The notes: generated by a model not told the origin, from the letters alone. A stretch of DNA of 64,000 bases from Candidatus Auribacterota bacterium (GCA_026392035.1 JAPLCX010000108.1:4634-68633), one strand, 5' to 3'; shown: positions 744 to 64,000, numbered from the stretch's first letter. Numbers and translations are program-made.

Positions 744-1316
744 ATGAATAGCAATCGAGTGTCCATACCAGCGGAGCGAATCGAGGGATTGATTCTTCTG
801 ATACGGGGGCAGAGGGTTATGTTGGATTCCGATCTGGCAAAGTTGTATGAAGTCACGACATCAAACCTGAACAAGGCGGTCAGACGTAATCCCGAGCGTT
901 TTCCGTCCGATTTCATGTTCCAGCTTAATGCATCCGAGTACCGGTCTTTAAGATTCCAATTTGGAATCTTAAAGCGCGGCCAGCACTCAAAATACCTGCC
1001 ATTGGCCTTCACCGAGCAGGGCGTTGCGATGCTCTCCAGCGTATTGAACAGTCCTCGCGCTATACAGGTAAATGTAGCCATTATGCGCGCTTTTGTACGC
1101 TTGCGCCAATTACTTGCCACACATGCAGGCCTGGCCCGAAAGCTTGAGGAGATGGAGCGCCAGTACGACCGGCAATTTCAGGTTGTGTTTGAAGCTATCC
1201 GTGAACTAATGAAGCCTCCGGAACCAAAAAGACGGCAGATCGGGTTCCATGTCCGGGAACGGCGTGCCTCATATTCCGCTCGACGGAAAAAGGTTGTGAA
1301 ACATGCTCGACGCTGA
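744..1316 (+). CDS. ORF6N (KilA-N-like) DNA-binding domain protein
   Basis: N-terminus [42 protein letters not shown] matches the ORF6N domain signature. Basic C-terminal tail. Inserted between hsdR and hsdM. Confidence 0.75.
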
Positions 1317-1428
1317 AACCAAAGCGAGAATAGATTCCGCCCGCGACATCCTGGTGGGCGCTATATTACCCTCTCCCTCTGGAGGGAGAGGGCGGGGTGA
1401 GGGGGAATATTTTGCTCTTCGTGACTGA
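1303..1428 (+). pseudogene. Duplicated 5' fragment of hsdM ([19 protein letters not shown]...) followed by an unrelated 22-codon tail and a stop
   Basis: nt 1303-1360 are ~88% identical to the true hsdM start at 1452-1510 (MLDTDTKARIDSARDILVGK). The ORF6N stop codon lies inside this copy. Confidence 0.5.
1360..1395. other. GC-rich inverted repeat/hairpin (CCCTCTCCCTC-TGGA-GGGAGAGGG) in the spacer between the hsdM 5' duplicate and the real hsdM
   Basis: Perfect 9-11-bp arms seen directly in the sequence. No T-tract follows, so it is not a canonical terminator. Confidence 0.4.
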
Positions 1429-1451
1429 TTCTGCATGAAAGGAAGCAATGT

Positions 1452-3929: not shown

Positions 3930-4094
3930 CAACAGAGCCAAGAGGTGTAATCATTATTATGATGATGATCATTGGACTTAATGTGCTTCAGCCTTCTATG
4001 TGGGGTCTATGAATATAGCGGTTGCCCAGTCCTTAAACAATAGGTGTTATGAAGTTAGAGGCCCCGGCTAGGCAGGATAAAAGAGAATAAGAAT

Positions 4095-5336: not shown

Positions 5337-5405
5337 TGACAGAAGTGGAACACAGGCTATGATGAATTCATTGAGCGTATATATGTCAGGCAATAATCGC
5401 TTTGC

Positions 5406-6605
5406 ATGAATATGAAAATCATACTTTTTCTGGGATCAGGAGTATCATTTCCGACGGGATTGCCATGTGCGAAAAAGGTAACAGATTCTATTCTCAGCGA
5501 TGAATGGCATAGTTGTAGTGATGGGATATTTCGACCGGGGCCAGAACCGAATCAGTATTTTCGAGACGATAATCTCGCGCCTTGTCTTCAGCAGTTTCTA
5601 AAATTGCTTAAGGAATATGCTGACGCTTATTATTCAAATAAGCATAGGCCAGAGTCGAATTACGAAGATTTATATTACCTCGCGCAGCAGATAGAGGATG
5701 AGGAGTTGGGAGAGATATTTAATCCAGCCATACGGCCTTTTGTCGAAGAGATAAAAAACAAGACTGTAGCATTATGCAGTCGGGAACAGTTTGGTATCAA
5801 AGACTTAACTTTTAGAGAGCTAGGCTGGAAAGCTTGCATATTTATTGAATATGCTTTATGGCAACTTTTGGGTACTAACAATAATCCTGAAGGGATGAAT
5901 CTCATTAAAGAGCTTGCGCTATCGCCAGAAGTTGAAGCTTTAGATATTCTCACTTTGAATCATGACATTCTAGTAGAAAGATTCCTTAGTCGTAACGGAA
6001 TTCAATATGCTGATGGTTTTGGGCTACCTGATGGAGATGTTAGGTTTTTTAAGCCATCGACATATGATGAGGATATCAAGGTTCGCCTTTTCAAACTTCA
6101 TGGCTCAATCAACTGGTTTTGGCTTAGACGCCGTGAGGGTGATATTGCCATTGCTGAATATGGCATCCCAATAAATAATGACATTTGGCACTTTAAAGAT
6201 GCAAAAGGTGAGAACATTGATAACTTGATGGGCGGGCCCAGAATTTTGATAGGGACTTATAACAAGATACCGGATTATGGTCAGGGCATATTTTCAGGAG
6301 TACACCTCAAATTTCAGTCTATTCTCCCAGAACGTGATTTGATGGTTATGTCCGGCTATGGCTGGAATGATAGGGGGATATCTCTCCGCCTTCGAGAATG
6401 GCTTAATTCTTCAATGGATAAACGCCTTTATCTATTGCATCAAAATCCTGAATCAGAAATTCGCGATAAATCAAAAAGTGGAATGTGGCACTGGTATGAG
6501 CCATGGGTAAAAGAGGGAAGGCTTGTGCCAATTAAGCAATGGTTGTGTGATATTAAATTACCTGAACTAATCGGAATAATTAAAACCCATCGAAGTGTGC
6601 ATTAA
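5406..6605 (+). CDS. SIR2-like protein (SIR2_2 / DHS-like NAD-binding family), standalone, 399 aa
   Basis: Rossmann start ILFLGSGVSFPTGLP. Catalytic-pair region LTLNHDILVE (Asn) ... FKLHGSINWF (His), arranged as in ThsA/DSR-type SIR2 domains. Later LMVMSGYGWNDRGI motif. The whole protein is SIR2_2-like. Confidence 0.75.
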   Translation: MNMKIILFLGSGVSFPTGLPCAKKVTDSILSDEWHSCSDGIFRPGPEPNQYFRDDNLAPCLQQFLKLLKEYADAYYSNKHRPESNYEDLYYLAQQIEDEELGEIFNPAIRPFVEEIKNKTVALCSREQFGIKDLTFRELGWKACIFIEYALWQLLGTNNNPEGMNLIKELALSPEVEALDILTLNHDILVERFLSRNGIQYADGFGLPDGDVRFFKPSTYDEDIKVRLFKLHGSINWFWLRRREGDIAIAEYGIPINNDIWHFKDAKGENIDNLMGGPRILIGTYNKIPDYGQGIFSGVHLKFQSILPERDLMVMSGYGWNDRGISLRLREWLNSSMDKRLYLLHQNPESEIRDKSKSGMWHWYEPWVKEGRLVPIKQWLCDIKLPELIGIIKTHRSVH

Positions 6606-6663: not shown

Positions 6664-6697
6664 CTTTTGGAGCGCGCAAAACCAAGAGCCTGCGGAG
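6664..6697. repeat. Repeat family R1, copy a (CTTTTGGAGCGCGCAAAACCAAGAGCCTGCGGAG)
   Basis: Near-identical copy at 7183-7217. Seen directly. Confidence 0.6.
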
Positions 6698-6821
6698 CCG
6701 AGGTCAGAGGTTTCTTTTCCTGCACCCGTGGAGCCCGTGGGGGAAATCGAAGGGGATCACTAAAAACAGCGGGAATTTTTTCTCTCATTCTAATCCCAAT
6801 TTTAGCATTGCTGCCCAACCC

Positions 6822-6875
6822 ATCCGCCTTGACTCACGCAAATGTTATTGACCTCATCCATGAACGCTCAACCCC
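6822..6875. repeat. Repeat family R2, copy a (ATCCGCCTTGACTCACGCAAATGTTATTGACCTCATCCATGAACGCTCAACCCC); contains two -35-like hexamers TTGACT/TTGACC
   Basis: Second copy 105 bp downstream (6927-6980). Partial third copy 6981-7006. Confidence 0.6.
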
Positions 6876-6926
6876 GCCGCCCTGCTGCCCATTCCCTCCC
6901 GCATCTATAATTGGAATGCTAAAAAG

Positions 6927-6980
6927 ATCCGCCTTGACTTACGCGAATGTAATTGACCTCACCCCTGAGCGCTCAACCCA
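6927..6980. repeat. Repeat family R2, copy b
   Basis: ATCCGCCTTGACTTACGCGAATGTAATTGACCTCACCCCTGAGCGCTCAACCCA, ~85% identical to copy a. Confidence 0.6.
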
Positions 6981-7182
6981 TCCTCCTTGACTCGCATGAA
7001 AGTTATCGGCATACGCATTTAAGCGTCCACGACACCTCAATAAAGCTTCCCCATCATAAGCGGAGTGGAAGCGGAGAGGGTACGGAGAGGGTGTCTCCCT
7101 GGGTGAGAAAAGAACCCCCCGCACCATCTCACGGTGATGCGGGGGCTTTCCAGAGCCACCGGGGATTATGCCTTTTAATGAG

Positions 7183-7217
7183 CTTTTAGAGCGCGCGAAA
7201 AACCTGGAGCCTGCGGA
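7183..7217. repeat. Repeat family R1, copy b
   Basis: CTTTTAGAGCGCGCGAAAAACCTGGAGCCTGCGGAG; pairs with 6664-6697. Confidence 0.6.
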
Positions 7218-14528: not shown

Positions 14529-14752
14529 CGCGGGGGCAAGCCGGGGATGACACCGGACGAGTGGAGCGATCTTCTGTATTCGGAGGTGACCCACAAGGAA
14601 CTTGCGAAAATGGGAGAGGAGTATCAAAAGAGCCTGAAGGACGAGAAGCAAAAGCAAGGGAAGAGACGTGCGGCACCCCCAAGAGCACCGAAAGGCACGG
14701 ATTCGGCCAAGAAATTGGGCGGTGAGGGGAGGATACCGACCTCCAAGAGATC
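14529..14752. repeat. ~225-bp dispersed repeat, copy 2
   Basis: See copy 1. This copy interrupts the parA-like reading frame. Confidence 0.7.
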
Positions 14753-14826
14753 GCGCCCTAGAGTTTAGGGGTGGCTTATTGACGAGGGAGGGGAAGCAAT
14801 CTCACCTCGCATTAGCTGCGGAGCTA

Positions 14827-15474
14827 ATGAAAAGGGAGGGAACTAAATTGGATGCGCTGCAGAAACATTTTCATGATGAGGCTGCATCATTTAAAAAGGC
14901 GGGCTTCGCTTCAATTCAATGGTTGGCCTGTGGCGATGAGCGCACGTGTTCTACATGTAAGGCGATGGATAAAAAGGTATTACCGATAGAAGATATGCGC
15001 CTTGTTATTCAAAAACATCACTGCGAAAACAAAGAAGATGGATGCCGTTGCACGTTTGTACTCCCAGATGAAGAATCCAGCCCAATAGATAATGCACAAT
15101 CTAAAGGTGATAAATCTGTTCCCGACTTAAACAAAGCCCCCGTGATGGATTTTATGTCTGCCATCGAAGAGGCGAAGAAAAAAGTGGCCGATCCAAAATG
15201 GTGGAGAGAACAAGGCTGTAAATGGGGCGATCATGCAATGGAAAGCTTCGGGAAGCTAATGGATCCAAAATATTCTTTATCGAATGAGGAAGCAAAGAGG
15301 ATCATCATTGAATTCCCCGCTTTCCATTCCATAATAATGGAATCCAATATCGAAATTAACGATGAGACAGTGCCTAAGGTTATCCAATTGATAAGGGAAC
15401 AGCTTGACCCGCAGAAATGGGCAAATCACGCTCCGGGGAGTCTCCGGGACGCTGGGCAAGAGGGTAAAACATGA
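14827..15474 (+). CDS. Phage Mu F / SPP1 gp7-like head-morphogenesis domain protein (standalone)
   Basis: [31 protein letters not shown] matches the MuF-domain hallmark (D-E-R-T-C-x-x-C-x-x-x-D-G-K-V). Start set at the first Met after the repeat. The longer listed ORF begins inside repeat copy 2. Confidence 0.55.
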
Positions 15475-16517
15475 CTTATACGCCGAAGTACACTATAACA
15501 GACGCCACGGCGGTAGCATTGACCGCTATCGAGCGGGCGAGGGGCTTCCTGGAGGCCGCGAAGCTCTCCGAAGACTGGGTAGCCGGGATGCAGCGGCGGG
15601 CGCTTGTCCTGGAGGCCCATCATACTACCCATATAGAAGGGACGCACCTCACCCTGGAGCAGTCGGAGCGGATACTCGCCGGTAAATCCGTCCCGGAGGC
15701 AAACCCCGATGATGCCCGCGAGCTTCTGAACTATCGGGATGCCTTCGAGCTCGTGGCGGAATACCTCGGGAGTGGGGAGCCCGTCACCGAGGCGCTCATC
15801 CGGCAGGTACACAAGCGCCTTGTGATCGGCGTGCGCGGCGACTCGGGAGCTCCAGGGGAGTACCGGAGGGTGCAGAACTACGTCGTGAACAGCCGCACCA
15901 AAGAGGTTGTGTACACTCCTCCACCTCCCCAGGATGTGCCGCCCATGATGAAAGAGCTTATCGCGTGGCTCGGGGAGGCCAAGCAGATGAATCCCGTCCT
16001 TGAGGCCGGTGCCGCTCAGTTTCAGCTCGTCCATATCCACCCATTTGTGGACGGGAACGGCAGGAGTGCCCGGCTCCTCTCGACGCTCTGCCTTTACCGG
16101 AAAGGGTACGACTTCAAGCGCCTCTTTACCATCAGCGAATACTATGACCGGGACCGGGCGGCCTACTACCGGGCAATCCAGAGCGTCCGGGCCAGCGGCA
16201 TGGACCTCACCAAGTGGCTGGAGTATTTCGCGGAGGGACTCGCCGTGCAGATGCGGGAGGTACAGGAGAAGGGGGAGCGCGTCATTCGGGCGGACGTGCT
16301 TGCCCGAAAGCACCGCCTCTCCGACCGGCAACGGGCCGCCCTCGGGCACGCCCTGGAGCACGGCTTACTTGCCTTACAAGACTACGCCGCACTATGCCCG
16401 AAGGCTAACCGCAGGACACTACAGAGAGACCTCAAGGCTATGGTGGACAAAGGCCTTCTCATTCAGGAGGGCTCAGGCCCGGCAGCGCATTACCGCATGG
16501 GGAAGGTTAAGAAGTGA
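15471..16517 (+). CDS. Fic-family protein (AMPylase-type), class II with N-terminal inhibitory motif
   Basis: Active site [16 protein letters not shown] (HxFx[D/E]GNGRxxR). N-terminal TTHIEG fits the (S/T)xxxE(G/N) auto-inhibition helix. Start overlaps the upstream stop (ATGA). Confidence 0.85.
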
Positions 16518-32269: not shown

Positions 32270-33290
32270 CGTGGTCTCTAGACGCTTTATGTAATATACA
32301 GCCGATCAACTGGTTATGATGCAAATTTGCACCTTGCAAGATATACGCCATAACTCTTTCTTTTGAAGCTGGTTGCATAAAGCGTCTACAATATCTATAG
32401 ACGTTTTACGTAACTGCCTGCTGGTGAACGAATTGCAGTGCAAATCGATCACACCGTAAAAATGCAGGAATAAATTTCTCCTCTGCTTCGTCTAATGATA
32501 TGGAGAGTGTAAAATGCCCTCATATGCCAGGAGATATCAATTGGAGAGGTCGCTGATTTACCACGCGTTCAACAGGAGCAATATGCGCGTTCCCATTTTC
32601 CACACGGATGATGATTACCTCCATTTTATGAAGCTATTGAAAAAATATAGCGAGAGGTTCTTTTTAAAAATATACCACTGGGTAATTCTCTCAAACCATT
32701 TTCACATTTTATTTCAACTTAAGGATGCGCTGATGGTTCCAAAAGTTATGGCGGGGCTGGATCGCTCGTACACGCACTATCACCACAGAAATTATGGAAG
32801 CTCCGGCTTCCTCTGGCAGGGCAGGTTCAAACTTCAGGCGGTGCAGAAAGAACGTTACTTGATTGCATGTGGCAGGTACATCGAGAGGAATCCGGTGCGC
32901 GCGGGATGCGTTCAAAATGCGTGGGAATATCCATACAGCAGCGCGCGCTTTTACTGCATGGGGCTATCGGACAACATCACAAGCGAGGATCCCGCATATG
33001 AGGGATCCGGACTCGACCGTGCTCAGAGATCGCAGGGTTATCGCAATTTTCTGCAAGACGATGATGCAGCTGAGGAATCGCTGTTTCGCAATAATGAAGC
33101 ACCTCTGGGTGATGAATGGTTTGTGGCACGCTTGCAGAAAATAGCCGGCCGCTATTATCCTCAGCGAAAAGGAAGATTGCGGAGGGAAGATTGTCGCATG
33201 GCGAGATGATCGCATGGTGATACAGTTGAAGAGCGTTATGGAATGAGAGGTGATACCATGACACTGCAACTGGTTTTGCAATATGTCTAG
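32270..33290 (+). mobile_element. IS200/IS605-family-like single-ORF element: hairpin-rich left end, HUH Y1 transposase, hairpin-containing right end
   Basis: Perfect 14-bp inverted repeat CTAGACGCTTTATG / CATAAAGCGTCTAC (32279-32292 / 32376-32389). Further palindromes at 32321-32332, 32385-32403 and 32432-32442. A hairpin at 33264-33280 follows the gene. Confidence 0.55.
32514..33209 (+). CDS. HUH-superfamily Y1 tyrosine transposase (IS200-like / REP-associated RAYT-like), 231 aa
   Basis: HUH motif NHFHILFQL. Catalytic-Tyr region YTHYHHRNYGSSGFLWQGRFKLQAVQ. Conserved ERNPVRAG and WEYPYSS segments are typical of this family. Confidence 0.65.
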   Translation: MPSYARRYQLERSLIYHAFNRSNMRVPIFHTDDDYLHFMKLLKKYSERFFLKIYHWVILSNHFHILFQLKDALMVPKVMAGLDRSYTHYHHRNYGSSGFLWQGRFKLQAVQKERYLIACGRYIERNPVRAGCVQNAWEYPYSSARFYCMGLSDNITSEDPAYEGSGLDRAQRSQGYRNFLQDDDAAEESLFRNNEAPLGDEWFVARLQKIAGRYYPQRKGRLRREDCRMAR

Positions 33291-40736: not shown

Positions 40737-40850
40737 ATGTCATTGCGATCCCGCAAAGCGGGAGAAGCAATCTCATGTTCTGCAATGAGTTGGGATTGCC
40801 GCGTCCGCCTCGTCCCGCTTAGCGGGACTCGGCGTCCTCGCAATGACAAC
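40737..40850. repeat. MITE-like ~114-bp palindromic element with terminal inverted repeats TGTCATTGCGA / TCGCAATGACA and internal GC hairpins; copy 1
   Basis: Second copy at 62108-62216 with the same termini (TGTCATTGCGAG/CTCGCAATGACA) and the same internal GCAATC...GATTGC palindrome. Confidence 0.6.
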
Positions 40851-50889: not shown

Positions 50890-51670
50890 GCTGTAAAAAT
50901 ATTTCTCTCAACTTCACCATATCACGCGCAAGTTTTGCAAGAGAATTGTTGACTGTACCGTCCCCGTTTTTGTGAAAGGGACTATTGCTTCATCTCCCAA
51001 TTCAGAAACAGGTCATTCCCGCGGAAGCCTGCCTATGCCGGAGCGGCTTCGCGCAGGCAGGCGGGAATCCAGTCCTGTACAGTAAATTGTGTATTTCAAC
51101 GCTGGATGCCTGCTGGAGTTTACCCCTGCGAGAGCAGGGGCAGACATGACACGATCACGTCTCTGGAACAAAAAGTATATATTCAGTTGACGATATCAGT
51201 ATCGTACTTGATGCCAGCACATTGGGTATTTCAAGCCTGAAATTTCGGGGAAAGTCCTGGGATGGGTTTAGCTTACGGCGTGGAAGGATCAGATTTGCTG
51301 ACGAAGCAGCTTCACACGAAGATCGGAGTGGATGAGAGGCTGACAGGTCGACCGGAGTTGATCAGTCGGAGCGAACGAGCGTTAGCGAGTGAGCGGAGAT
51401 CCCGAGTGGAGCGAGAGATCATTCCCAGATTAACAGAGCGTAGCGTACGACTTATTGTCTGGGGGGTGACCCTGATTATTTCAGAGACTGATGGGAAAAG
51501 GCATCACCGCCGTATCAACTGTCAAGGATAAAGACTTGACCCCAAATGTCTCACGCTCTACTCGATGGTGAGGAAGGTTTCTGCGATCGGCCCGAGCGGA
51601 GCGACCCGCCGCGGAAGTCAAGCAGGCTCGTGTACCCGGAGGCTCCCGCCGTGCTCCTCTCGGGAATCCC

Positions 51671-56815: not shown

Positions 56816-57477
56816 CTCCTCCGGCTCCTCACTCCCAGCCCTTTCCAGAGGAGGCGCAGCTGACGCGTGTAGTGGTAGGCCTTGTCCCGGATATTCTCGA
56901 GCTTGGCCGCCAGGAGGGTCCCCCCCATTATCGCGAGCAGCGATATCACTATGTCGTCGATAGCGACATCCGCGGGGAGTTCGCCATGCGCGCGCGCGTC
57001 CTTCAGGCAGCCCTTGAAGAACACCCCGATAGGCATTGTGGGGATCTCCTCGATGCCTGCGCAGCGTGGGAAGGCGAGCTGCTTTTCAATGGGGGTGATA
57101 TCGACTGGTTTCGGCCTCTCCTGCTGGTTGACCATGATGGAGATCAGCTGGTAGCCGAGGTTGGCGCTGTGCAGATCCCCGGCCAGCGTTACGAACACCT
57201 CGTCGATCAAGGCGAGGGATCTTCCCGGGGGGGCCTCCCGCCGCGCCTTCCAGATGATCTTCAGCAGGAGGAGAGTTATGTAGTAGTTGATGATGTCGAT
57301 CTTTTCGGGGAAGTAGTTGAAGAACGTCCCCTCGGAGATTTCGACACTCCTGCACAGTTCCCGGATGGAGATGCCGTCATACCGGCTGGCGCGCAATCGC
57401 TGCACGAAGGCGTTGACGATGGCGAGCTTTGTGCGCGCGTGCTTCTTTTCGCGCAGCGAGTATTCTTTCCCTGGCAT
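56812..57477 (-). CDS. TetR/AcrR-family transcriptional regulator
   Basis: N-terminal HTH (GISIRELCRSVEISEGTFFNYF). First gene of the efflux operon. Confidence 0.8.
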   Translation of the reverse strand: MPGKEYSLREKKHARTKLAIVNAFVQRLRASRYDGISIRELCRSVEISEGTFFNYFPEKIDIINYYITLLLLKIIWKARREAPPGRSLALIDEVFVTLAGDLHSANLGYQLISIMVNQQERPKPVDITPIEKQLAFPRCAGIEEIPTMPIGVFFKGCLKDARAHGELPADVAIDDIVISLLAIMGGTLLAAKLENIRDKAYHYTRQLRLLWKGLGVRSRRR

Positions 57478-57620
57478 GGCATGTATCCTTATTTAGTGTT
57501 TGCTACATAAATATAGCATACTATAAATTATCGTCAAGCGCTATTTTTTCGCCGCACCGGAAAAATCAGGGTCAAACCTTTACTATACACTAAGAGGAGC
57601 ATAGTTGATCTAGTGCGAGC

Positions 57621-57740
57621 ATGGCAAGACCACTGAGGATTGAATATCCGAGGCATGGCACCATGTCACAAGCCGCGGGAACGAGCGGTGGGAGATATCC
57701 CGGGACGACAAGGACAGGAAGCGGAGCCGCGGTGACGAAT
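57621..57740 (+). pseudogene. Decayed N-terminal fragment of a RAYT/IS200-like HUH transposase gene (MARPLRIEYP, then frameshift, then GAWHHVTSRGNER)
   Basis: MARPLRIEYPGAxYHVTSRGNER is the characteristic N-terminus of this transposase family. Here a 1-nt frameshift and a stop follow after ~38 codons. Preceded by AAAAATCAGGGTCAAACCT at 57561-57580. Confidence 0.5.
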
Positions 57741-57834
57741 AATCACATGCGTCTTCAGAAGCAGATGTTAAAAGACCGAAGATTGGCGAAACGGGTGAAA
57801 CAGATTCACGACAAACTTGTCAGTGTACAGTAGA
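57723..57834. repeat. ~110-bp repeat, left copy; inverted partner at 61797-61908
   Basis: GGAGCCGCGGTGACGAATAATCACATGCGTCTTCAGAAGCAGATGTTAAAAGACCGAAGATTGGCGAAACGGGTGAAACAGATT... is ~90% identical to the reverse complement of 61797-61908. Confidence 0.7.
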
Positions 57835-57974
57835 GGTCTAACCCTAATGCTGCACTTCGCACACTTCCTCGCTCCTGCTCCGCCCTAGGTTCAGGGACGA
57901 CTCTTTCAATTAATTACGCTTCGTGGGAAGCTTAAAGAATGGTATGATTCAACTCACGAGAACAGATCAACACT

Positions 57975-58721
57975 TTGACTTTGATAGACGTTATGGATAA
58001 TGTACTTGCTAATCTGAACAGAAAGATTGGAGAAGCGATTAGAACCTATTGGCTCACGCGGGAGGGCCAGACTAAAAGGCAGAAAGAAGCAGGACGAGTG
58101 GATCAGGGGGCTCGAAGCGCCGTAACGGACGGCGCCCAAATGGATGGTTTTATCTCCCTGATTACTGAAATACTTTGCAACGCTGGAATTGATTCTCGGC
58201 ACATATTCAGGAAAACATGCATAGAATTACCCGGCTTTTTCAGGCCCACAAAGGAGTGGGATCTCCTTGTAGTAAGGGATGGGCAATTGATATTGGCTCT
58301 CGAAGCGAAATCTCAAGTAGTCCCCTCGTTTGGGAATAACTTCAACAATCGAACCGAGAAAGCTATGGGGAGCGCTCTGGACTTGTGGACTGCCTTTAGA
58401 GAAGGCGCCTTCAATAAAACGGTTAAGCCATGGTTAGGGTATCTTTTTCTCCTAGAGGATTGTCCTCAATCTAGGCATGCCGTAAAAGTGCGCGAACCAC
58501 ATTTTGAAGTATTCCCCGAATTCAAAAATGCCTCTTATGGCAAGAGATATGAGCTATTCTGCCGCAAGCTGGTACGAGAAAGGCATTATTCTGCTACTGC
58601 CTTCTTAATGGCATCAAGAGCTGGTGGACTCAAAGGAAACTACGAAGAACCGTCAAAAGATTTAACCTTTGAGCTATTTGCCCGTTCGCTGATCGGCCAA
58701 GTAACTGCTTTTGGGAAATAG
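57975..58721 (+). CDS. Putative type II restriction endonuclease (PD-(D/E)xK fold), 248 aa
   Basis: Candidate catalytic core ...EWDLLVV...LILALEAKSQVV (D ... E-A-K, EcoRI-like spacing). Gene sits 8 nt upstream of a DNA MTase in a low-GC island. No family-level match could be made by eye. Confidence 0.45.
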   Translation: MTLIDVMDNVLANLNRKIGEAIRTYWLTREGQTKRQKEAGRVDQGARSAVTDGAQMDGFISLITEILCNAGIDSRHIFRKTCIELPGFFRPTKEWDLLVVRDGQLILALEAKSQVVPSFGNNFNNRTEKAMGSALDLWTAFREGAFNKTVKPWLGYLFLLEDCPQSRHAVKVREPHFEVFPEFKNASYGKRYELFCRKLVRERHYSATAFLMASRAGGLKGNYEEPSKDLTFELFARSLIGQVTAFGK

Positions 58722-58729
58722 GCTTAATC

Positions 58730-59677
58730 ATGATACAAGCCACAAGTCTAGAGAATATAGTTACAACACATCGCCTTATCCAAGGTGATGCCAGAGAAAT
58801 GTCATATATCCCGAACGAATCAATCCATCTTGTGATTACATCACCACCTTACTGGACATTAAAGAGATACAATGAAAATCCAAGACAGTTAGGGCATGTT
58901 TCCGGATACGAACAATTTCTTAATGAGCTACAAAAGGTATGGACCGAGGTTTATAGAGTGCTTGTTCCCGGAAGCAGGCTAGTTTGCGTGATCGGGGACG
59001 TATGCCTTTCCAGAAAGAAGTTTGGGAGGCATGTAGTTGTTCCTCTGCATGCTGATGTTTGCGTGATGTGCAGGAAGATTGGCTTTGACAATCTTAATCC
59101 TATCATCTGGCATAAAATTTCGAACGCTGCTTTTGAAGCGAACGACGGATCAAAATTTTTAGGCAAACCATATGAGCCTAATGCGATTATTAAAAACGAT
59201 ATCGAGTTTATTCTGATGCAAAGGAAGCCGGGGGGCTATAGGAAGCCCACGGAAGAGCAACGCCGGCTAAGCAAAATAGGCAAGAACGAATTCAACGAAT
59301 GGTTCCGTCAGTTCTGCACCTTAACGGGAGCTTCTACAAAAAATCATCCAGCACCTTTCCCTTTAGAGTTAGCTAATCGTTTGGTGCGGATGTTTTCATT
59401 TTGGGGGGATACGGTCCTAGATCCTTTCTGTGGGAGCGGTACTACAATGCTGGCTGCCATGAGGTGTCACCGCAATAGCATAGGGGTTGAAATAGATAGA
59501 GAGTATTGCCGTATGGCCGCGCAGCGATTGATTAAGGAAAATCAGGATTTTTTCTCTAAAACCCGTTTGGAGTTCAAAAAGCAGATTAATAGTAAAGACC
59601 AGGGCTTGATTCTCCATGAGGATAAAGCTTTATATGTGGCGCACAAGAAAAAACAAAAAATGAAAGCCGCATCATAA
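58730..59677 (+). CDS. Beta-class amino-DNA methyltransferase (motif IV SPPY before motif I DPFCGSGTT); likely N4-cytosine (or N6-adenine)
   Basis: VITSPPYW (motif IV) at aa ~38 and VLDPFCGSGTT (motif I) at aa ~263. This is the ParB/beta-group order typical of type II N4C/N6A MTases. Confidence 0.85.
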   Translation: MIQATSLENIVTTHRLIQGDAREMSYIPNESIHLVITSPPYWTLKRYNENPRQLGHVSGYEQFLNELQKVWTEVYRVLVPGSRLVCVIGDVCLSRKKFGRHVVVPLHADVCVMCRKIGFDNLNPIIWHKISNAAFEANDGSKFLGKPYEPNAIIKNDIEFILMQRKPGGYRKPTEEQRRLSKIGKNEFNEWFRQFCTLTGASTKNHPAPFPLELANRLVRMFSFWGDTVLDPFCGSGTTMLAAMRCHRNSIGVEIDREYCRMAAQRLIKENQDFFSKTRLEFKKQINSKDQGLILHEDKALYVAHKKKQKMKAAS

Positions 59678-59777
59678 TTACTCGCATGAGCCCCACACAG
59701 GATAGGAAATGTAGTGGGGTTCTATTGCCTCTACCGCCATCGCTGCTACCCAGTTATCTTCCAGCTTGTTGCCTACA

Positions 59778-60066
59778 GCAAAAATCAGGGTCAAACCTCG
59801 TCTATTGACTGCGAGACAACCGGATGATCGGTGACAATGGCGCGAGGCCCGGCAGGTGGTACTCGAGTTGATCTGCCGGGTGGAATGGTGAGGCGAGGTT
59901 ACTGCATTTCCTCGGAGCGGAGCTGGGTGAGGTAGGAGGGATGCCGTGGAAGATGATCGCGAGCGGTTCCGGGAGAATATCCAGACGGATAAACAGTTGT
60001 TCAAACGTCGATAGGATGTATCGAACTTTTCTTAGTCAATAAACGAGGTTTGACCCTGATTTTTTT
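59778..60066. repeat. ~290-bp MITE-like insertion bounded by a perfect ~24-bp terminal inverted repeat (AAAAATCAGGGTCAAACCTCGT)
   Basis: Left arm 59778-59801, right arm 60041-60066 (reverse complement). Interior is GC-richer than the flanking R-M genes. The same 19-mer occurs at 57561-57580. Confidence 0.6.
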
Positions 60067-60186
60067 CTGGGAATTAATCTTCGGGAGCTCGTGTTAAATG
60101 ATAAAATATGAGTTGCGGCAGGGATCAGCATATTGTATTATTTAGTACAAATACTTGTACAATAACGTACAAATACTTGTACTCCT

Positions 60187-60789
60187 ATGGAATACAAAAT
60201 AAATAGAGACGGGCTTTTAACGGAGATGGGGATCTGGAACGGGTTTCTTGGCCGTTCGGTGAGATTGATTGCCTGCGGCGGCACAGGGCTTACTCTTCTG
60301 GGAGTGAAAGATTCAACAAAAGACATAGATTTGATGGTGCCAGACGAATGGGAGCATAGTTATCTCCTGAGCATTTTGAAGCAGTTCGGTTACAAGCAGG
60401 TAACCGGTTATGGATGGGCTAGAGGCGGGGGATTCGTGTTCGATCTCTTCCGTGGAAACAGAATACACACCACGGAATTGCTGGAATCCCCTCTGGAAAA
60501 GGGCAATCATCTCATGTTCAAGGAATACAGCCGGATCTATCTTGGAATTCTCAATTACTATGACCTGATTATAAGCAAACTGTTCCGTGGCACATCCGTT
60601 GACTTTGATGACTGCGTGGCCTTAGTGCGTGTCAAACATCGCGAGGTTGATTTTGGCAGGCTATGTAATCGCTATCGAGATACTGCCGCATATGATGTGT
60701 CCGAGATAAATGTGTTGAAGAACTTGGACACTTTCATTCACCTGATTAGAAAAGAGGGGCTCTACAATGACAACACGCTCACTTCGTGA
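60187..60789 (+). CDS. Nucleotidyltransferase-fold protein (Pol-beta superfamily minimal NTase), 200 aa
   Basis: IACGGTGLTLLGVKDSTKDIDLMV fits the hG[GS]x9-13[DE]hDL NTase signature. Confidence 0.55.
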   Translation: MEYKINRDGLLTEMGIWNGFLGRSVRLIACGGTGLTLLGVKDSTKDIDLMVPDEWEHSYLLSILKQFGYKQVTGYGWARGGGFVFDLFRGNRIHTTELLESPLEKGNHLMFKEYSRIYLGILNYYDLIISKLFRGTSVDFDDCVALVRVKHREVDFGRLCNRYRDTAAYDVSEINVLKNLDTFIHLIRKEGLYNDNTLTS

Positions 60790-61423
60790 AAGGGTTGCAC
60801 AAATGGGGTTCCCTCTTCTTGGGGTTGAAGAGGACTTGAACGTCAACGAGACGCTGGCCGAGGTCGTCAAAAGCAAGGAACTCAGATTGTGGGAGGCATT
60901 CCCTGTTTTGCTTGCGCGAAGCGTTGAGAAAGGGCTTTTCGATTATTCCGAGGTCAGTTCCGGTTTGACCACTACGGAGAGGGATGATCTGGATTCCCTT
61001 GTCCGTGTATCATGTGCACTCTATCGTGCCCTTGGTCTCAAGTTTGATTGGTGCCGGCGGCTGGAATCTCTTCCTCCCCTTCAGGAATGGCAAGGCCGGA
61101 CTGAGTTAAAGAGCTTCAAGGCCAGGAAAGATGTAAAGGCGGGATCCCTGGTGCTCTCAACCGACAGAATGATGGCTCATTTTCAGAGCTACTTTAATGC
61201 GGAAGAGCGCAATCTTAGAGATCTCCTTGCCCACAAGGAAGAGTATTCTCTTGAGGTCGCATTGTCGCAGATCTTCTCGCCGAAACAAAAAGAGCTTTTC
61301 CTTAAGAAACTGAAGGGCGATAAATTGTCAAAGACAGAGATGGAGTATTATTCGCGCCGGGTGAAGAAGAAGGCCCTTGCCCTTGCAAACGAAGAGTTGC
61401 ATAAATTGGCCAGAAGCTTGTAA
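60767..61423 (+). CDS. Hypothetical protein (218 aa), possibly HEPN-like partner of the NTase
   Basis: Start overlaps the NTase gene by 23 nt. An R-x4-H motif (RDLLAH) in a helical region is the only hint. Weak. Confidence 0.4.
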   Translation: MTTRSLRERVAQMGFPLLGVEEDLNVNETLAEVVKSKELRLWEAFPVLLARSVEKGLFDYSEVSSGLTTTERDDLDSLVRVSCALYRALGLKFDWCRRLESLPPLQEWQGRTELKSFKARKDVKAGSLVLSTDRMMAHFQSYFNAEERNLRDLLAHKEEYSLEVALSQIFSPKQKELFLKKLKGDKLSKTEMEYYSRRVKKKALALANEELHKLARSL

Positions 61424-61432
61424 ATCCTGAGT

Positions 61433-61747
61433 TTGATCATGGATACAGATTATCTGACAGAGATGGCCTATAACTGCATTCGCCTGGCAAATGAAGCCTC
61501 CGATGTATTGAAATCGGAACTCGGCGCCATGTGCAGCAGGTTTAAGACTGAAGATGCGTATCTGAAAGGGATTCTGAGATATGTGAAGGAGATCGAAAGA
61601 GATCCGGAGGACTATCTGGACTGTTGGAATCTACTGGACGATATCGACCTCGGGATTTTCGCGCAGAGAGTAAAGATACTGCGAGAATATATTGATACTA
61701 CCATAGCCACGCCAATCAAGGATCGCGGGAAACCGGCGTTCCCTTGA
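61433..61747 (+). CDS. Hypothetical small protein (104 aa)
   Basis: ORF in the same low-GC block, codirectional, 10-nt spacing. No motifs. Confidence 0.35.
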   Translation: MIMDTDYLTEMAYNCIRLANEASDVLKSELGAMCSRFKTEDAYLKGILRYVKEIERDPEDYLDCWNLLDDIDLGIFAQRVKILREYIDTTIATPIKDRGKPAFP

Positions 61748-61796
61748 GATCATGTGTCGGGACGCGAGAGGATACTCAAAACATCAGGGTCATCTC

Positions 61797-61908
61797 TACA
61801 CTAACAAGTTAGTTGTAAATCTGTTTCACCCGTTTCGCCAATTTTCGGTCTTTCAACATCTGCTTCTGAAGACGCATATGATTATTCGTCACCGGAGCTC
61901 CGCCAATC
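61797..61908. repeat. ~110-bp repeat, right copy (inverted relative to 57723-57834); itself flanked by a 14-bp inverted repeat ACATCAGGGTCATC / GATGACCCTGATGT (61781-61794 / 61970-61983)
   Basis: Read directly on both strands. Confidence 0.7.
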
Positions 61909-62107
61909 CCACTCAATTCAGCTCCCAATTTCTCGAGAGGCCTATAGCTCATAGGCCATGCCCTGAATTGATGACCCTGATGTGACTTCCATAAACCCAT
62001 TTCCGATGAGCAGATGTAAAAGCTTCAGGGCCAGACCATGATTATTGACTAAGTACACCTTGTCATAAATACGGTTACGCGATGCAACCCGTGCGCAACA
62101 CGTTGCA

Positions 62108-62216
62108 CCATGTCATTGCGAGGAGTCCCGCTTGGGGGGACGATGAAGCAATCCGCTCCAAAGGTTTATAGAGATGAGATTGCCGCGCCCCACTTCGTGG
62201 GGCTCGCAATGACATG
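62108..62216. repeat. MITE-like palindromic element, copy 2 (termini TGTCATTGCGAG / CTCGCAATGACA)
   Basis: Same termini and internal palindromes as 40737-40850. Confidence 0.6.
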
Positions 62217-62300
62217 ATAGGGCTGATAGCGATTGTTGTCGCACAGTTGAAATACGTCACCTAACTTTATGACCCCGAGCACTAAGGGTCCTATTGCCAC

Positions 62301-62675
62301 ATGGCAAGATCGCCGAGGATTGAATATCCGGCACGGTATCCTGGCCCGAGTCGCGGGAGAGAGCGTGATGAGATATCCAGATACGGCAAGGGCAGGCAGC
62401 GGTTTCTCGAGGAAGAATTATCAGAGCGCAAACATAAAATGGAAACCCGAGGAATCCTGTTGGCCTTGCCTGCGCCTGGTACTATAATTGATCCAAGAGA
62501 ACCGAGGGGACATGTGAGGGCAGGCGGGATAGGCAAGGATAAGCCGCACTCTTACGTAATGGGACAGTTATGGGGTGGGAGATACACCCTCAGCCCTGCC
62601 CTTCCTTCGGCAGGCTCAGGACAGGCTCCCCTTTGGAGGGGGAGGGGATATGATCCTAGACCCCGCCGAAACTGA
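62301..62675 (+). pseudogene. Second decayed copy of the RAYT/IS200-like transposase 5' region (MARSPRIEYPARYPGPSRGRERDEISRYGKGRQRFLEEEL...)
   Basis: The first ~45 codons track the transposase N-terminus consensus (EYPGAxYHVxSRGNERxDIFRDxxDRxRFLEEL) with many substitutions, then diverge. ~80% nt identity to 57621-57700. Confidence 0.45.
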
Positions 62676-62760
62676 TCCATCGCACTCTTGCGCGCATTTG
62701 GCAAAGACAGAGGGCACATGGAAGAGTTTCCCCGCAGAGATCGGGGGATTGTAAAGGGAG

Positions 62761-64000
62761 GCTGATTCTCATGGAAAACAGGGAGATTGCCGATATCTTC
62801 GAGGAGATTGCGGATATCCTCGATATCCGGGGTGAGAACCCGTTCCGGATACGGTCGTACAGGAACGCCGCGCGTGCGATCGGGGATATGTCCGAGAGCG
62901 TTGCCGCGATGGTGCGTGAGGGGAAAGATATCGAGACTATCCCCGGGATCGGGAAATCCATCGATGAGAAGATAAGGGAGATTGTCACTACAGGAAAGCT
63001 CAAATTCCTCAACGAGTTGCGCGCGAGCCTTCCGAAGGGGCTCACGGAGCTTCTCCGGATCGAGGGGCTCGGTCCCAAAAAGGTGAAACTGTTCTATGAA
63101 AAAATGAAGATTGATTCCGTCGACAAGCTCGAGGCGGCCGCGAAGGGAGGCACGCTGCGCGAGCTTGAGGGGATGGGGGACAAGAGCGAAGAAAATCTAT
63201 TGAAGGCGATTGCGCGCTACCGGGCGGGGCAGGGGCGGTTCAAACTCTCCGTAGGTCTGGAGTACGCGGAGTCTATCGCCCGCTACCTCAAGAAGTCCAA
63301 GGGTGTGAAGGCGATCGAAGCGGCGGGAAGCGTCAGGCGGAGGAGGGAGACAGTGGGGGATCTGGATATCCTGGCGATCTGCGCCCCCGGCTCGGATATT
63401 ATGGATCGATTCATCAAATATGACGGCATCGAGCAGGTCACTGCGAAGGGGACGACGAAGTCGAGCGCCCGCCTCTCCTGCGGCCTCCAGGTGGATGTGC
63501 GGATGCTCCCCGTGGAGAGTTTCGGGGCTGCACTCCTGTACTTTACCGGTTCAAAAGAGCACAACATCGCGATCCGGACACGCGCAGTGGAGCGGAAATT
63601 GAAGGTGAGCGAGTACGGCGTGTTCCGGGGAGAGAAGCGCATCGCCGGCAAATCGGAAGAAGATGCGTACAAGGCATTGGGGCTACCGTTTATTCCCCCT
63701 GAGATCCGTGAAAACCACGGTGAGATCGAGGCGGCGGAGAAGGGGATGCTCCCCAGTCTCATTGAGCTCAGAGACATACGGGGTGATCTTCAGATGCACA
63801 CCACCGCAACGGACGGCAAGGCGTCGATCCTCGACATGGCACAGAAGGCAAAGGATCTCGGTTATGAGTATATCGCCATTACAGATCATTCGAAGGCGGT
63901 GAAGGTTGCGGGGGGACTCGACGAGAAAGAACTCGCCCGGCATCTGAAAGCTATCGAGAAGGCGCAGGATCAGATCAAGGGACTGCGCATCCTCAAGGGG
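62761..64000 (+). CDS. polX: DNA polymerase/3'-5' exonuclease PolX (Pol-beta-like domain + PHP domain), 5' part; runs off the 3' end of the window
   Basis: Open frame from the ATG at 62761 to the window end. HhH/8-kDa and fingers motifs (GIGKSIDEKIRE, GLGPKKV), NTase core GSVRRRRETVGDLDIL, then PHP-domain start GDLQMHTTATDG...ITDHS. Confidence 0.85.

What the first reader, a model, noticed from the sequence alone, without database searches (positions are those of the whole stretch)
57540..62000. Low-GC mosaic island bounded by ~110-bp inverted repeats and decayed RAYT-like transposase stubs, carrying a putative type II R-M system
A ~4-kb block of visibly lower GC content lies between an inverted pair of ~110-bp repeats (57723-57834 and 61797-61908). 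The left repeat is fused to a frameshifted transposase N-terminus (MARPLRIEYP ... GAWHHVTSRGNER). That stub is preceded by AAAAATCAGGGTCAAACCT, the same sequence that forms the TIR of a MITE inside the island.

The cargo is a PD-ExK-type 248-aa putative endonuclease followed 8 nt later by a beta-class SPPY...DPFCGSGTT DNA methyltransferase, plus three more small genes.

This looks like an R-M system mobilised or captured by RAYT/REP-type repeats. It would be a second, independent R-M locus in 64 kb, and a further defence island.
Basis: partly seen in the sequence, partly recalled or inferred. Interest (0 to 1): 0.6.

Follow-up and report, generated by a model that had tools for sequence, protein, structure and literature searches.

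The report
XhoI-type restriction cassette among decayed transposon relics
A bacterium from the candidate phylum Auribacterota carries an ordinary, already annotated XhoI/PaeR7I-type restriction-modification gene pair, recently acquired in a variable gap between two housekeeping loci that is also littered with four dead miniature copies of a little-studied tyrosine-transposase element (TIRYT).

Summary
GC falls from about 0.60 to 0.45. The 110-nt inverted repeat is 91% complementary. The 19-mer AAAAATCAGGGTCAAACCT occurs three times. An intact REase gene and MTase gene lie 8 nt apart.

The REase belongs to the XhoI/PaeR7I family (PF04555, E 7.5e-90). The MTase is beta-class with an SPPY motif and is about 68% identical to Thermus TTHA0409.

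The "RAYT-like stubs" are four decayed, non-autonomous derivatives (A-D) of TIRYT/"TIRtron" elements. Their parent gene encodes a 336-aa Y1_Tnp + DnaA_C-like protein flanked by GGGGWSAS-type terminal inverted repeats. The 110-nt inverted repeat is the shared 3' gene end of copies A and C, which lie in opposite orientation.

The block is not one mobilised unit:
- A 1,841-bp R-M cassette (57864-59704) is 99.3% identical in a different genomic context.
- That cassette has no room in a contig whose identical TetR protein occurs on DNA 99.6% identical to the window's flank.
- The three-gene DUF6036 module (98% identical elsewhere) has its own boundaries.

Host: a Candidatus Aureabacteria MAG whose GenBank record already names both R-M genes.

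Verdict: a real, ordinary variable defence hot-spot and a new member of known kinds. No role for the TIRYT ends in moving the cassettes is shown.

The parts
57561..57848 (+). Element A. A 288-bp non-autonomous TIRYT derivative: left TIR, about 35 N-terminal codons, an internal deletion, about 35 C-terminal codons, right TIR.
   Evidence: The TIR pair is 57564-57591 and 57822-57849, each 3 mismatches from the family consensus. The same deletion junction occurs in six JGI loci with different flanks.
57621..57725 (+). N-terminal stub of the TIRYT gene. It reads MARPLRIEYP, then a 1-nt frameshift, then AWHHVTSRGNERWEISRDDKDRKR.
   Evidence: Homologues are PF01797 / 'REP element-mobilizing transposase RayT'.
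57726..57833 (+). C-terminal stub of the TIRYT gene (..GAAVTNNHMRLQKQMLKDRRLAKRVKQIHDKLVSVQ*). It forms the left arm of the 110-nt inverted repeat (57721-57830).
   Evidence: It matches the C-terminus of full-length P0124..GGIGGAAVANNHMRLQKQMLKDRRLAKRVKQIQNKLISE. Inverted repeat: I1.
57864..59704 (+). R-M cassette, an 1,841-bp unit with GC 0.445.
   Evidence: It is 99.3% identical over exactly this span in JGI contigs L024 and L025, downstream of an Aminotran_3 gene and a CbiA/AAA_26 gene (bioA/bioD-like, my reading). Homology stops at both ends.
57975..58721 (+). Type II restriction endonuclease of the XhoI/PaeR7I family. It is 248 aa from the TTG start. The GenBank protein is 242 aa, which implies a start at ATG 57993.
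   Evidence: PF04555: E 7.5e-90, 300 bits against a 25-bit cut-off, profile positions 1-190 of 191. PADLOC REase_II: 1.7e-91. 46% identity to plasmid 'PaeR7I family' REases. D96...E110-A-K112. NCBI name.
58730..59677 (+). Beta-class amino DNA methyltransferase, 315 aa. SPPY (motif IV) lies N-terminal and DPFCGSGTT (motif I) lies C-terminal.
   Evidence: PF01555: 3.1e-42. PDB 2zie (T. thermophilus TTHA0409): E 3.7e-112, about 68% identity over 262 residues. PADLOC MTase_II: 9e-65.
59780..60064 (.). MITE B, 285 bp, with 31-nt terminal inverted repeats that are 97% complementary. The outer 19 nt are identical to the left end of A.
   Evidence: (I2).
60145..60182 (+). Two identical 16-bp palindromes, GTACAAATACTTGTAC, 22 bp apart. 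The second ends 4 nt before the ATG of the next gene. They look like operators.
   Evidence: Read directly from the sequence. Direct repeat D12.
60187..60789 (+). DUF6036-family nucleotidyltransferase-fold protein, 200 aa.
   Evidence: PF19502: 5e-06, 26.9 bits against a 23.6-bit cut-off.
60767..61423 (+). 218-aa all-helical protein of an uncharacterised family. It overlaps the preceding gene by 23 nt. The conserved C-terminal block FSPKQKEL..LTKTE.EYYSR.VKKK looks like a helix-turn-helix (my reading).
   Evidence: 369 cluster representatives with E<=1e-3, nearly all about 220 aa. Conservation. No consistent Pfam match (0 hits for the window protein; six unrelated families hit by 1 of 42 members each), and no PDB or fold match.
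61433..61747 (+). Small ORF with no family match. It is 104 aa from TTG, or 102 aa from ATG 61439.
61778..61985 (-). Element C. A 208-bp TIRYT derivative that keeps about 50 C-terminal codons (MSYRPLEKLGAELSGIGGAPVTNNHMRLQKQ..) and its own 14-nt ends, ACATCAGGGTCATC. It forms the right arm of the 110-nt inverted repeat (61794-61903).
   Evidence: (I1, I11).
62018..62665 (+). Element D, a degenerate TIRYT relic. It has a B-type left end at 62018-62053. An unrelated palindromic repeat is inserted at 62109-62216. About 60 frameshifted N-terminal codons start at 62301. The right boundary is uncertain.
   Evidence: (I4, I14, D1, D4).

Best explanation
The 5.3-kb gap between a tetR-efflux operon (tetR starts at 57477, minus strand) and polX (62771) is a hypervariable hot-spot. 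The host is a Candidatus Aureabacteria (Auribacterota) MAG. The gap holds two kinds of sequence.

1. Four decayed, non-autonomous relics (A-D) of TIRYT/'TIRtron' elements. Their autonomous form encodes a 336-aa Y1 (HUH) tyrosine transposase with a DnaA_C-like helix-turn-helix tail, flanked by inverted GGGGWSAS-type ends.

2. Two independently acquired low-GC cassettes.
- A 1.84-kb Type II R-M cassette. Inferred mechanism, standard for the families: the beta-class SPPY methyltransferase methylates an exocyclic amino group, N4-C or N6-A, in a short palindrome. That palindrome is probably CTCGAG, the site of the XhoI/PaeR7I family. The 242-248-aa PD-(D/E)XK endonuclease cuts unmethylated copies. 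This protects against incoming DNA and makes the cassette addictive.
- A three-gene DUF6036 nucleotidyltransferase module with tandem palindromic operators. It is probably an autoregulated toxin-antitoxin-like or defence module, but this is inference only.

What is shown and what is not. Shown: the anatomy, the family assignments, the independence and polymorphism of the cassettes, and the origin of the repeats. Inferred: recognition site, methylated base and enzymatic activity. Not shown: any role of the TIRYT ends in moving the cassettes.
For: R-M family assignment. Both ORFs are full length against their profiles.

TIRYT origin of the repeats:
- The N-terminal stub hits PF01797/RayT.
- Full-length homologues are about 336 aa with PF01797 + PF08299.
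- Their C-termini match the stubs in A and C.
- A full-length gene is flanked by inverted GGGGTCAGACCTCTACTATACAC motifs, and its stop codon lies inside the right repeat.
- The literature defines TIRYT/TIRtrons with the TIR consensus GGGGWSAS (PMC3733652). It also defines subclass 2.1.2 with a Bac_DnaA_C tail (PMC6006769).
- Element A has the same deletion junction as six JGI copies in different flanks, so it belongs to an amplified MITE family.

Independence of the cassettes:
- The R-M span 57864-59704 is 99.3% identical in L024/L025 in another context.
- The module span from at or before 59846 to 61774 is 98% identical in L010-L012 and diverges 3 nt before element C.
- ENA contig ERZ1426817 has tetR, then 1,065 bp, then the DUF6036 gene. 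The R and M ORFs alone span 1,703 bp and cannot fit.
- That contig's TetR protein (P0529) is also encoded on L046/L047. Those contigs are 99.6% identical to the window over 5.9 kb and include the left part of element A.
- A third contig with the same TetR protein has two other small genes next to tetR.

Host and prior annotation.
Against: - No REBASE comparison, methylome or biochemistry was available. At 46% identity to PaeR7I-family enzymes, CTCGAG is likely but not assured.
- CTCGAG is not depleted in the window: 24 observed against 28.8 expected.
- The methyltransferase is of a different class from the Eco57I-like partner annotated next to PaeR7I-family REases on plasmids.
- Several cassette boundaries lie close to TIRYT ends. 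The R-M left boundary is 15 nt from the right end of A. The module's right boundary is 3 nt from C. In L024 an 18-nt exact TIRYT left-end fragment lies within about 11 nt of the R-M right boundary. Pure coincidence does not explain this comfortably.
- Short-read contigs break inside A and B. The physical order tetR-A-RM-B-module therefore rests on the MAG assembler's path through repeats.
Confidence: 0.72

Rival explanations
1. MITE-flanked composite transposon. A and C (or A and B) supply outward-facing TIRYT ends. A TIRYT protein encoded elsewhere in the genome mobilises everything between them, R-M included, as one unit.
For: - A and C are in inverted orientation, with their left ends facing outward.
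- Cargo boundaries lie 3-15 nt from MITE ends.
- TIRYT-derived MITEs with an identical deletion junction occur at many sites, so something moves them in trans.
Against: - The block was not found as a unit in any other context.
- The R-M cassette alone recurs without A, B or C.
- The module recurs without C.
- A contig with TetR variant P0529 has the module but no room for R-M. Contigs with the same TetR carry element A at the same site.
- The arms are 9% diverged, whereas the R-M cassette is 99.3% identical to its other copy.
- The outer end of C is degenerate and was not detected at up to 8 of 28 mismatches.
- No intact gene of this TIRYT subfamily is in the window.
- No target-site duplication was seen.
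Confidence: 0.08
2. Passive role of the repeats. Dispersed MITE copies act as portable homology, and homologous recombination between them, after DNA uptake or within the genome, shuffles cassettes into and out of this gap.
For: - The gap holds a cluster of repeats from several families. Some are shared with the other R-M context: 6697-7208, 51436-51544 and 62113-62216 against L024.
- At least three different states of the site occur in near-identical strains.
Against: - Homology between the window and L024 stops 15 nt short of A and 75 nt short of B, not inside a shared repeat.
- The flanks immediately outside the cassette differ between the two contexts.
Confidence: 0.1
3. Assembly artefact. 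The MAG assembler threaded an R-M cassette from another locus, flanked by similar A-like and B-like repeats, into this gap. The true arrangement would be the shorter one seen in ERZ1426817.
For: - Independent short-read contigs end inside A (57640, 57809) and start or end inside A and B (57780, 59807). L007 and L001 overlap by only 30 nt inside the repeat.
- A contig without room for R-M exists.
Against: - L001 matches the A copy at 100% over 57780-57830, and the C copy at only about 90%.
- The R-M contig and the tetR contig co-occur in the same sample, SRR20698649.
- The GenBank contig numbers the four proteins consecutively.
Confidence: 0.08

Closest known systems
PaeR7I / XhoI Type II restriction-modification systems (recognition site CTCGAG)
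   Same: The endonuclease is a full-length PF04555 member of 242-248 aa with a D...EAK core. It is 46% identical to plasmid-borne 'PaeR7I family' enzymes. It sits next to, and in the same direction as, a methyltransferase gene.
   Different: The partner methyltransferase is a beta-class SPPY enzyme of the TTHA0409 clade. The PaeR7I-family REases on D. vulgaris pDV1 have an Eco57I-like (N6-adenine type) methylase annotated beside them. The gene order here is R then M. The recognition site and the methylated base are untested. CTCGAG methylation is reported as m6A, m5C and m4C in different organisms (PMC11033074).
TTHA0409, putative beta-class DNA methyltransferase of Thermus thermophilus HB8 (PDB 2zie/2zif/2zig)
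   Same: About 68% identity over 262 residues, including SPPYWTLKRY and DPF.G.GTT. A Thermus phage homologue is 60% identical.
   Different: The papers I could read do not state the specificity of TTHA0409. The protein here has a 40-residue lysine-rich C-terminal tail.
TIRYT / TIRtrons (Di Nocera et al. 2013, PMC3733652), equal to TnpA_REP-like subclass 2.1.2 (Quentin et al. 2018, PMC6006769)
   Same: The parent protein has Y1_Tnp with an HUH motif (NHFHF), plus a Bac_DnaA_C-like tail. The gene is flanked by terminal inverted repeats that contain GGGGTCAG, which fits GGGGWSAS. The ends occur in tandem or clustered copies.
   Different: The window holds only dead relics. The motif in the window copies has drifted to AGGGTCAA. 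Element A belongs to a MITE family that keeps the first and last 35 codons or so of the gene. I did not see that form described in the TIRYT passages I read of those two papers.
REPIN/RAYT systems (Bertels & Rainey 2011, PMC3116915)
   Same: Short non-autonomous inverted-repeat elements, dependent on a Y1 transposase gene that is itself flanked by the same repeats.
   Different: The ends are not palindromic REPs. Folding of the ends is no better than shuffled sequence at five of six ends tested. The elements are 208-288 bp, not about 70-100 bp. The protein carries an extra helix-turn-helix domain.
Mobile R-M units and defence islands in variable genome regions (from my own knowledge: Kobayashi 2001; Furuta, Abe & Kobayashi 2010; Makarova et al. 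2011)
   Same: A compact R-M pair with deviant GC. It is present or absent among close strains, recurs in a different context, and sits next to another small putative defence or TA module and mobile-element debris.
   Different: Nothing essential. No integrase, target duplication or terminal repeat of its own was found for the cassette.

Membership tests
XhoI/PaeR7I restriction endonuclease family (PF04555) | Sequence match to the family profile above the curated cut-off, over the full length | tested here: met
   300.4 bits against a 25-bit cut-off, profile positions 1-190 of 191. PADLOC REase_II positions 5-240 of 247. NCBI names the same protein 'PaeR7I family type II restriction endonuclease'.
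XhoI/PaeR7I restriction endonuclease family (PF04555) | PD-(D/E)XK-type catalytic residues present | tested here: inconclusive
   D96...E110-A-K112 is present in the sequence. I did not align it to an experimentally mapped active site, and no solved structure of the family was found.
XhoI/PaeR7I restriction endonuclease family (PF04555) | Recognition and cleavage of C^TCGAG | not testable with these tools
   This needs REBASE, biochemistry or a methylome. CTCGAG frequency in the window is uninformative: 24 observed against 28.8 expected.
Beta-class N4-cytosine/N6-adenine DNA methyltransferase | Circularly permuted motif order: motif IV ((S/D/N)PP(Y/F)) before motif I (FxGxG) | tested here: met
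   SPPY lies near residue 38 and DPFCGSGTT near residue 230. PF01555: 145 bits. Homology to the beta-class structures 2zie, 1boo, 6pbd and 1eg2.
Beta-class N4-cytosine/N6-adenine DNA methyltransferase | Identity of the methylated base (m4C or m6A) | not testable with these tools
   From my own knowledge, SPPY is typical of N4-cytosine enzymes. The closest solved homologue has no stated specificity in the papers I read.
Type II R-M system | Separate, adjacent, intact REase and MTase genes | tested here: met
   8-nt gap, same strand, both full length.
TIRYT / TIRtron | Encodes a Y1 transposase with an HUH motif and a catalytic tyrosine | tested here: not met
   The window copies keep only about 35-60 N-terminal and about 35-50 C-terminal codons, so the HUH region is deleted. 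Full-length relatives do have it: P0121-P0128, NHFHF, PF01797. The window elements are therefore derivatives, not autonomous members.
TIRYT / TIRtron | Gene flanked by terminal inverted repeats carrying GGGGWSAS | tested here: met
   The full-length relative in L036-L040 has GGGGTCAG in inverted copies on both sides. JGI MITE copies mostly have AGGGTCAG. The window copies have AGGGTCAA, 6 of 8.
Composite transposon | The whole unit (both arms plus cargo) recurs at other sites or is bounded by a target duplication | tested here: not met
   Only sub-parts recur. No target duplication was found.
REPIN | Two palindromic REP sequences in inverted orientation that form a long hairpin of about 70-100 nt | tested here: not met
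   The ends are not self-complementary. Five of the six DNA folds of the ends were not significant (z from +0.4 to -1.5). One end of the full-length relative reached z -2.2. The elements are 208-288 bp.
DUF6036 nucleotidyltransferase | Pfam match above the gathering score | tested here: met
   26.9 bits against 23.6. The match is marginal and the function of the family is unknown.

The most novel reading that the evidence does not exclude
TIRYT ends may be active junctions at which foreign cassettes are captured or carried along. This could work by read-through or one-ended HUH transposition, as in IS91/ISCR elements, or by end-directed insertion. Clusters of TIRYT relics would then act as a cassette-collecting platform for defence genes. 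The hint is positional. The R-M cassette starts 15 nt from the right end of A. In L024 it ends within about 11 nt of an exact 18-nt TIRYT left-end fragment. The module ends 3 nt from C.
Probability: 0.1. Interest if true: 0.6.

Novelty: new member of a known kind. Interest (0 to 1): 0.3.

Why it matters
The immediate value is tidy annotation. A probably functional XhoI/PaeR7I-family R-M system, paired with an unusual beta-class methyltransferase, is polymorphic in an Auribacterota population. The "inverted repeats" around it are transposon relics, not boundaries.

The secondary value lies in the relics. TIRYT elements have barely been studied, and only three texts in the library use the term. 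One internally deleted derivative, with an identical junction, sits in at least seven different contexts. The parent protein is 73-89% identical between MAGs labelled as different phyla. Together these are indirect evidence that these elements do transpose, act in trans and move horizontally. If the closeness of cassette junctions to TIRYT ends proved causal, it would add a new route for moving defence genes.

Tried and rejected
- Rfam scan of 57400-62800 at E<=1: nothing.
- Promoter and terminator scans: nothing beyond chance that changes the picture.
- DNA folding of six element ends, to look for IS200/REP-like hairpins: five not significant, one at z -2.2.
- CTCGAG avoidance: none.
- Scan of 185,579 species genomes for the 19-mer: 11 hits. 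Most lie inside unrelated coding regions. Only L016 (Brocadiaceae), L021 (Chlamydiota) and perhaps L018 look homologous. The source genome is not among the representatives.
- Viral-contig scans for the 19-mer and for a 23-mer from the C-terminal stub: two 19-mer hits that I did not examine, and no 23-mer hit.
- Empty-site test through PolX orthologues. The 83%-identical relative has fructose-bisphosphate aldolase directly upstream of polX and no tetR-efflux operon. Synteny is broken, so no clean empty site exists. Closer relatives had no DNA on file.
- 218-aa protein. Single-sequence AlphaFold gave pLDDT 61 and Foldseek against the PDB gave nothing below E 0.6. A 42-sequence profile found no PDB match and no consistent Pfam family.
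- Exact look-ups of the 218-aa and 102-aa products: not on record.
- Terminal or flanking repeats belonging to the R-M cassette itself: none. A TIR-like TTCAGGGACGACTCT just inside its left end is too weak to count.
- Cassette DNA against plasmids: only distant matches of 69-75% over 5-10% of the cassette. The methyltransferase protein against phages: best match 60% identity, in a Thermus phage.

Full report
**1. Observation**

- GC falls from 0.58-0.68 upstream to 0.41-0.52 between about 57.2 and 62.2 kb. By part it is 0.445 for the R-M cassette and 0.469 for the three-gene module, against 0.605 for the preceding 9.5 kb.
- The inverted repeat has arms 57721-57830 and 61794-61903, 110 nt, 100/110 complementary.
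- AAAAATCAGGGTCAAACCT occurs exactly three times in the 64 kb, at 57561+, 59780+ and 60046-, against 0.01 expected. The last two are the ends of a 285-bp MITE with 31-nt, 97% terminal inverted repeats.
- ORFs 57975-58721 and 58730-59677 are 8 nt apart. Three more ORFs follow.

**2. The R-M pair**

The first ORF is a full-length member of Pfam XhoI (PF04555): E 7.5e-90, 300 bits against a 25-bit cut-off, profile positions 1-190 of 191. It also matches a PADLOC Type II REase model at 1.7e-91. It is 46% identical to plasmid genes annotated 'PaeR7I family type II restriction endonuclease'. It carries D96...E110-A-K112.

The second ORF is a PF01555 amino-methyltransferase with SPPY ahead of DPFCGSGTT, the beta-class motif order. 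It is about 68% identical over 262 residues to the solved Thermus thermophilus protein TTHA0409 (PDB 2zie, E 3.7e-112). It is 60% identical to a Thermus phage methyltransferase. The papers I could read do not state the specificity of TTHA0409.

PaeR7I-family REases on D. vulgaris plasmids sit beside an Eco57I-like methylase, so the pairing here differs. CTCGAG methylation is reported as m6A, m5C and m4C in different organisms (PMC11033074). An SPPY enzyme protecting CTCGAG is therefore plausible but untested. CTCGAG is not avoided in the window: 24 observed against 28.8 expected.

Both genes are already named in GenBank. They are MCX6340555.1 'PaeR7I family type II restriction endonuclease' and MCX6340556.1 'site-specific DNA-methyltransferase', on a 72,710-bp contig of a Candidatus Aureabacteria MAG. 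The host assignment agrees with a 100% PolX match.

**3. What the repeats are**

The stub at 57621 reads MARPLRIEYP, then after a 1-nt slip AWHHVTSRGNERWEISRDDKDRKR. It jumps straight to ..GAAVTNNHMRLQKQMLKDRRLAKRVKQIHDKLVSVQ*.

The N-terminus matches only PF01797 / 'REP element-mobilizing transposase RayT' proteins. A metagenome scan with the DNA of the stub gave seven loci.
- Six carry the same element of about 270-290 bp, with the same deletion junction, in different flanks.
- One (L034) carries the start of a full-length gene.

Full-length homologues are about 336 aa with PF01797 plus, in many, PF08299 (Bac_DnaA_C). They occur in MAGs labelled Auribacterota, Chlamydiota, Elusimicrobia and Spirochaetota at 55-89% identity. 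The C-terminus of P0124 (..MSYRPLEQLGDELGGIGGAAVANNHMRLQKQMLKDRRLAKRVKQIQNKLISE) matches the C-terminal stubs of elements A and C.

In L036-L040 a full-length gene is flanked by inverted GGGGTCAGACCTCTACTATACAC motifs. There are two tandem copies upstream and three downstream, and the stop codon lies inside the right repeat.

This is the published TIRYT/'TIRtron' arrangement: a RAYT-like Y1 transposase flanked by terminal inverted repeats with the consensus GGGGWSAS (Di Nocera et al. 2013, PMC3733652). It corresponds to subclass 2.1.2, which has a Bac_DnaA_C-like tail (Quentin et al. 2018, PMC6006769). The ends do not fold better than shuffled sequence at five of six ends tested, which also fits TIRYT rather than REP.

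**4. Anatomy of the gap**

Between tetR (starts at 57477, minus strand) and polX (62771) I find, in order:
- Element A, 57561-57848, plus strand.
- R-M cassette, 57864-59704.
- MITE B, 59780-60064.
- Three-gene module, up to 61774.
- Element C, 61778-61985, minus strand. It keeps only the C-terminal 50 codons or so and has its own 14-nt ends.
- Element D, 62018 to about 62665, plus strand. It has a B-type left end, an unrelated palindromic repeat inserted at 62109-62216, and about 60 frameshifted N-terminal codons from 62301.

Sources. All five detectable TIRYT-type ends in the 64 kb lie in this gap. Shuffles give 0-1.

**5. Is the block one mobile unit? No.**

(a) The identical methyltransferase protein is encoded on JGI contigs L024 and L025. 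There, exactly 57864-59704 (1,841 bp) is 99.3% identical. It lies downstream of an Aminotran_3 gene and a CbiA/AAA_26 gene (bioA/bioD-like, my reading). Homology stops at both ends, and A, B and C are absent.

(b) The module, from inside MITE B to 61774, is 98% identical on L010-L012. It then diverges 3 nt before element C.

(c) ENA contig ERZ1426817 has the same tetR-efflux genes. Only 1,065 bp separate tetR from the DUF6036 gene, and no genes are called there. The window has 2,709 bp in that interval. The R and M ORFs alone span 1,703 bp and cannot fit.

(d) The TetR protein of that contig (P0529) is also encoded on L046 and L047. These are 99.6% identical to the window over 5.9 kb and include the left 127 bp of element A. 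R-M is therefore a presence/absence polymorphism among very close strains that share A.

(e) A third contig with the same TetR protein has two different small genes beside tetR.

(f) A and C are 9% diverged, far more than the 0.7% between the two R-M copies.

An 83%-PolX relative has an unrelated gene directly upstream of polX, so the gap is also a synteny breakpoint.

**6. The three-gene module**
- The first gene is a marginal DUF6036 nucleotidyltransferase: 26.9 bits against a 23.6-bit cut-off.
- The second gene (218 aa) overlaps it by 23 nt. It belongs to an uncharacterised family of about 220-aa proteins with 369 cluster representatives. It has a conserved C-terminal block, FSPKQKEL..LTKTE.EYYSR.VKKK.
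- No consistent Pfam match and no PDB or fold match was obtained for the second gene, and the structure model was poor.
- Two identical palindromes, GTACAAATACTTGTAC, lie just upstream of the first gene.

I read this as an autoregulated TA-like or defence module. That is inference only.

**7. Caveats**

Short-read contigs break inside A and B. The order across these repeats therefore depends on the MAG assembly. L001 does match A rather than C in the shared repeat.

Three cassette junctions lie very close to TIRYT ends:
- The R-M left boundary is 15 nt from the right end of A.
- The module's right boundary is 3 nt from C.
- In L024 an 18-nt exact left-end fragment lies within about 11 nt of the R-M right boundary.

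I cannot explain this. It is the basis of the low-probability novel reading.

**8. Verdict**

The R-M system is an ordinary, already annotated member of known families, with a somewhat unusual methyltransferase partner. The 'island bounded by inverted repeats' is better described as a variable hot-spot. In it, two independent cassettes are interleaved with relics of TIRYT elements.

Novelty: new member of a known kind. Interest: 0.3.

Noticed in passing
window 744-6605: Another low-GC block (0.39-0.50) that looks like a defence island. It holds an ORF6N-domain protein (744-1316), an 825-aa fusion of N6_Mtase with two Methylase_S specificity domains (1452-3929), a 413-aa protein with no family (4095-5336), and a SIR2_2-domain protein (5406-6605).
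   Followed up: partly
window 32514-33209: An intact 231-aa Y1_Tnp (PF01797, 2e-12) gene in a local GC dip. It has the HUH motif (NHFHIL). It belongs to a different subfamily from the MARPLRIEYP TIRYT stubs and has no DnaA_C tail. It could be a RAYT serving one of the other repeat families in the window.
   Followed up: partly
window 62109-62216; also 40737-40846 and L024:6293-6402: A palindromic repeat family (catgtcattgcgag ... ctcgcaatgacatg, with 14-nt perfect arms). One copy is inserted inside TIRYT relic D. Related copies lie elsewhere in the window and beside the R-M cassette in its other context.
   Followed up: no
window 6697-7208 and 51436-51544; L024:3679-4283: Further repeat families, 86-92% identical, shared between this window and the left flank of the R-M cassette in L024. 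The copy at 51455-51548 contains GGTGACCCTGATTATTT and GACTTGACCCC, which resemble TIRYT-type ends.
   Followed up: no
window 60145-60182: Two identical 16-bp palindromes, GTACAAATACTTGTAC, 22 bp apart. The second ends 4 nt before the ATG of the DUF6036 gene. This looks like an operator for an autoregulated module, and it leaves no room for a Shine-Dalgarno sequence.
   Followed up: no
L029-L035 (JGI Ga0315275/81/88/91): The A-type TIRYT MITE, with the same internal deletion junction, occurs in six further contexts. L030 has a duplicated right end and L035 a duplicated left inner segment. Flanks tend to read GGAAA...TTTCC, so the inverted repeat may extend a few bases further out. No target duplication was seen.
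   Followed up: partly
L016:1279-1389 (Brocadiaceae) and L021:5020-5140, 6874-6904 (Chlamydiota MAG): Tandem or inverted copies of the same end motif, AAAAATCAGGGTCAAACCT followed by a similar inner part, in MAGs of other phyla with no TIRYT gene within the fetched 8 kb. Together with 73% protein identity between Auribacterota-like and Chlamydiota-labelled TIRYTs, this suggests cross-phylum spread.
   Followed up: partly
cluster of window:57975-58721: A partial REase (126 aa, MCX5726851.1) from a MAG labelled Candidatus Saganbacteria shares the endonuclease's 90%-identity cluster. This indicates either recent cross-phylum transfer of the cassette or a binning error.
   Followed up: no
window 59846-61774 vs L010-L012; 51794-57687 vs L046: In samples ERZ18623327 and ERZ27313048 the chromosomal flank is 99.6% identical to the window, but the three-gene module is only 98.0% identical. 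The module seems to evolve faster or to have been exchanged independently of its flank.
   Followed up: no
window 14668-16517: A Phage_Mu_F-like protein (268 aa) is followed by a Fic/DOC-family protein (348 aa). The pair overlaps on the plus strand in a region of intermediate GC.
   Followed up: no
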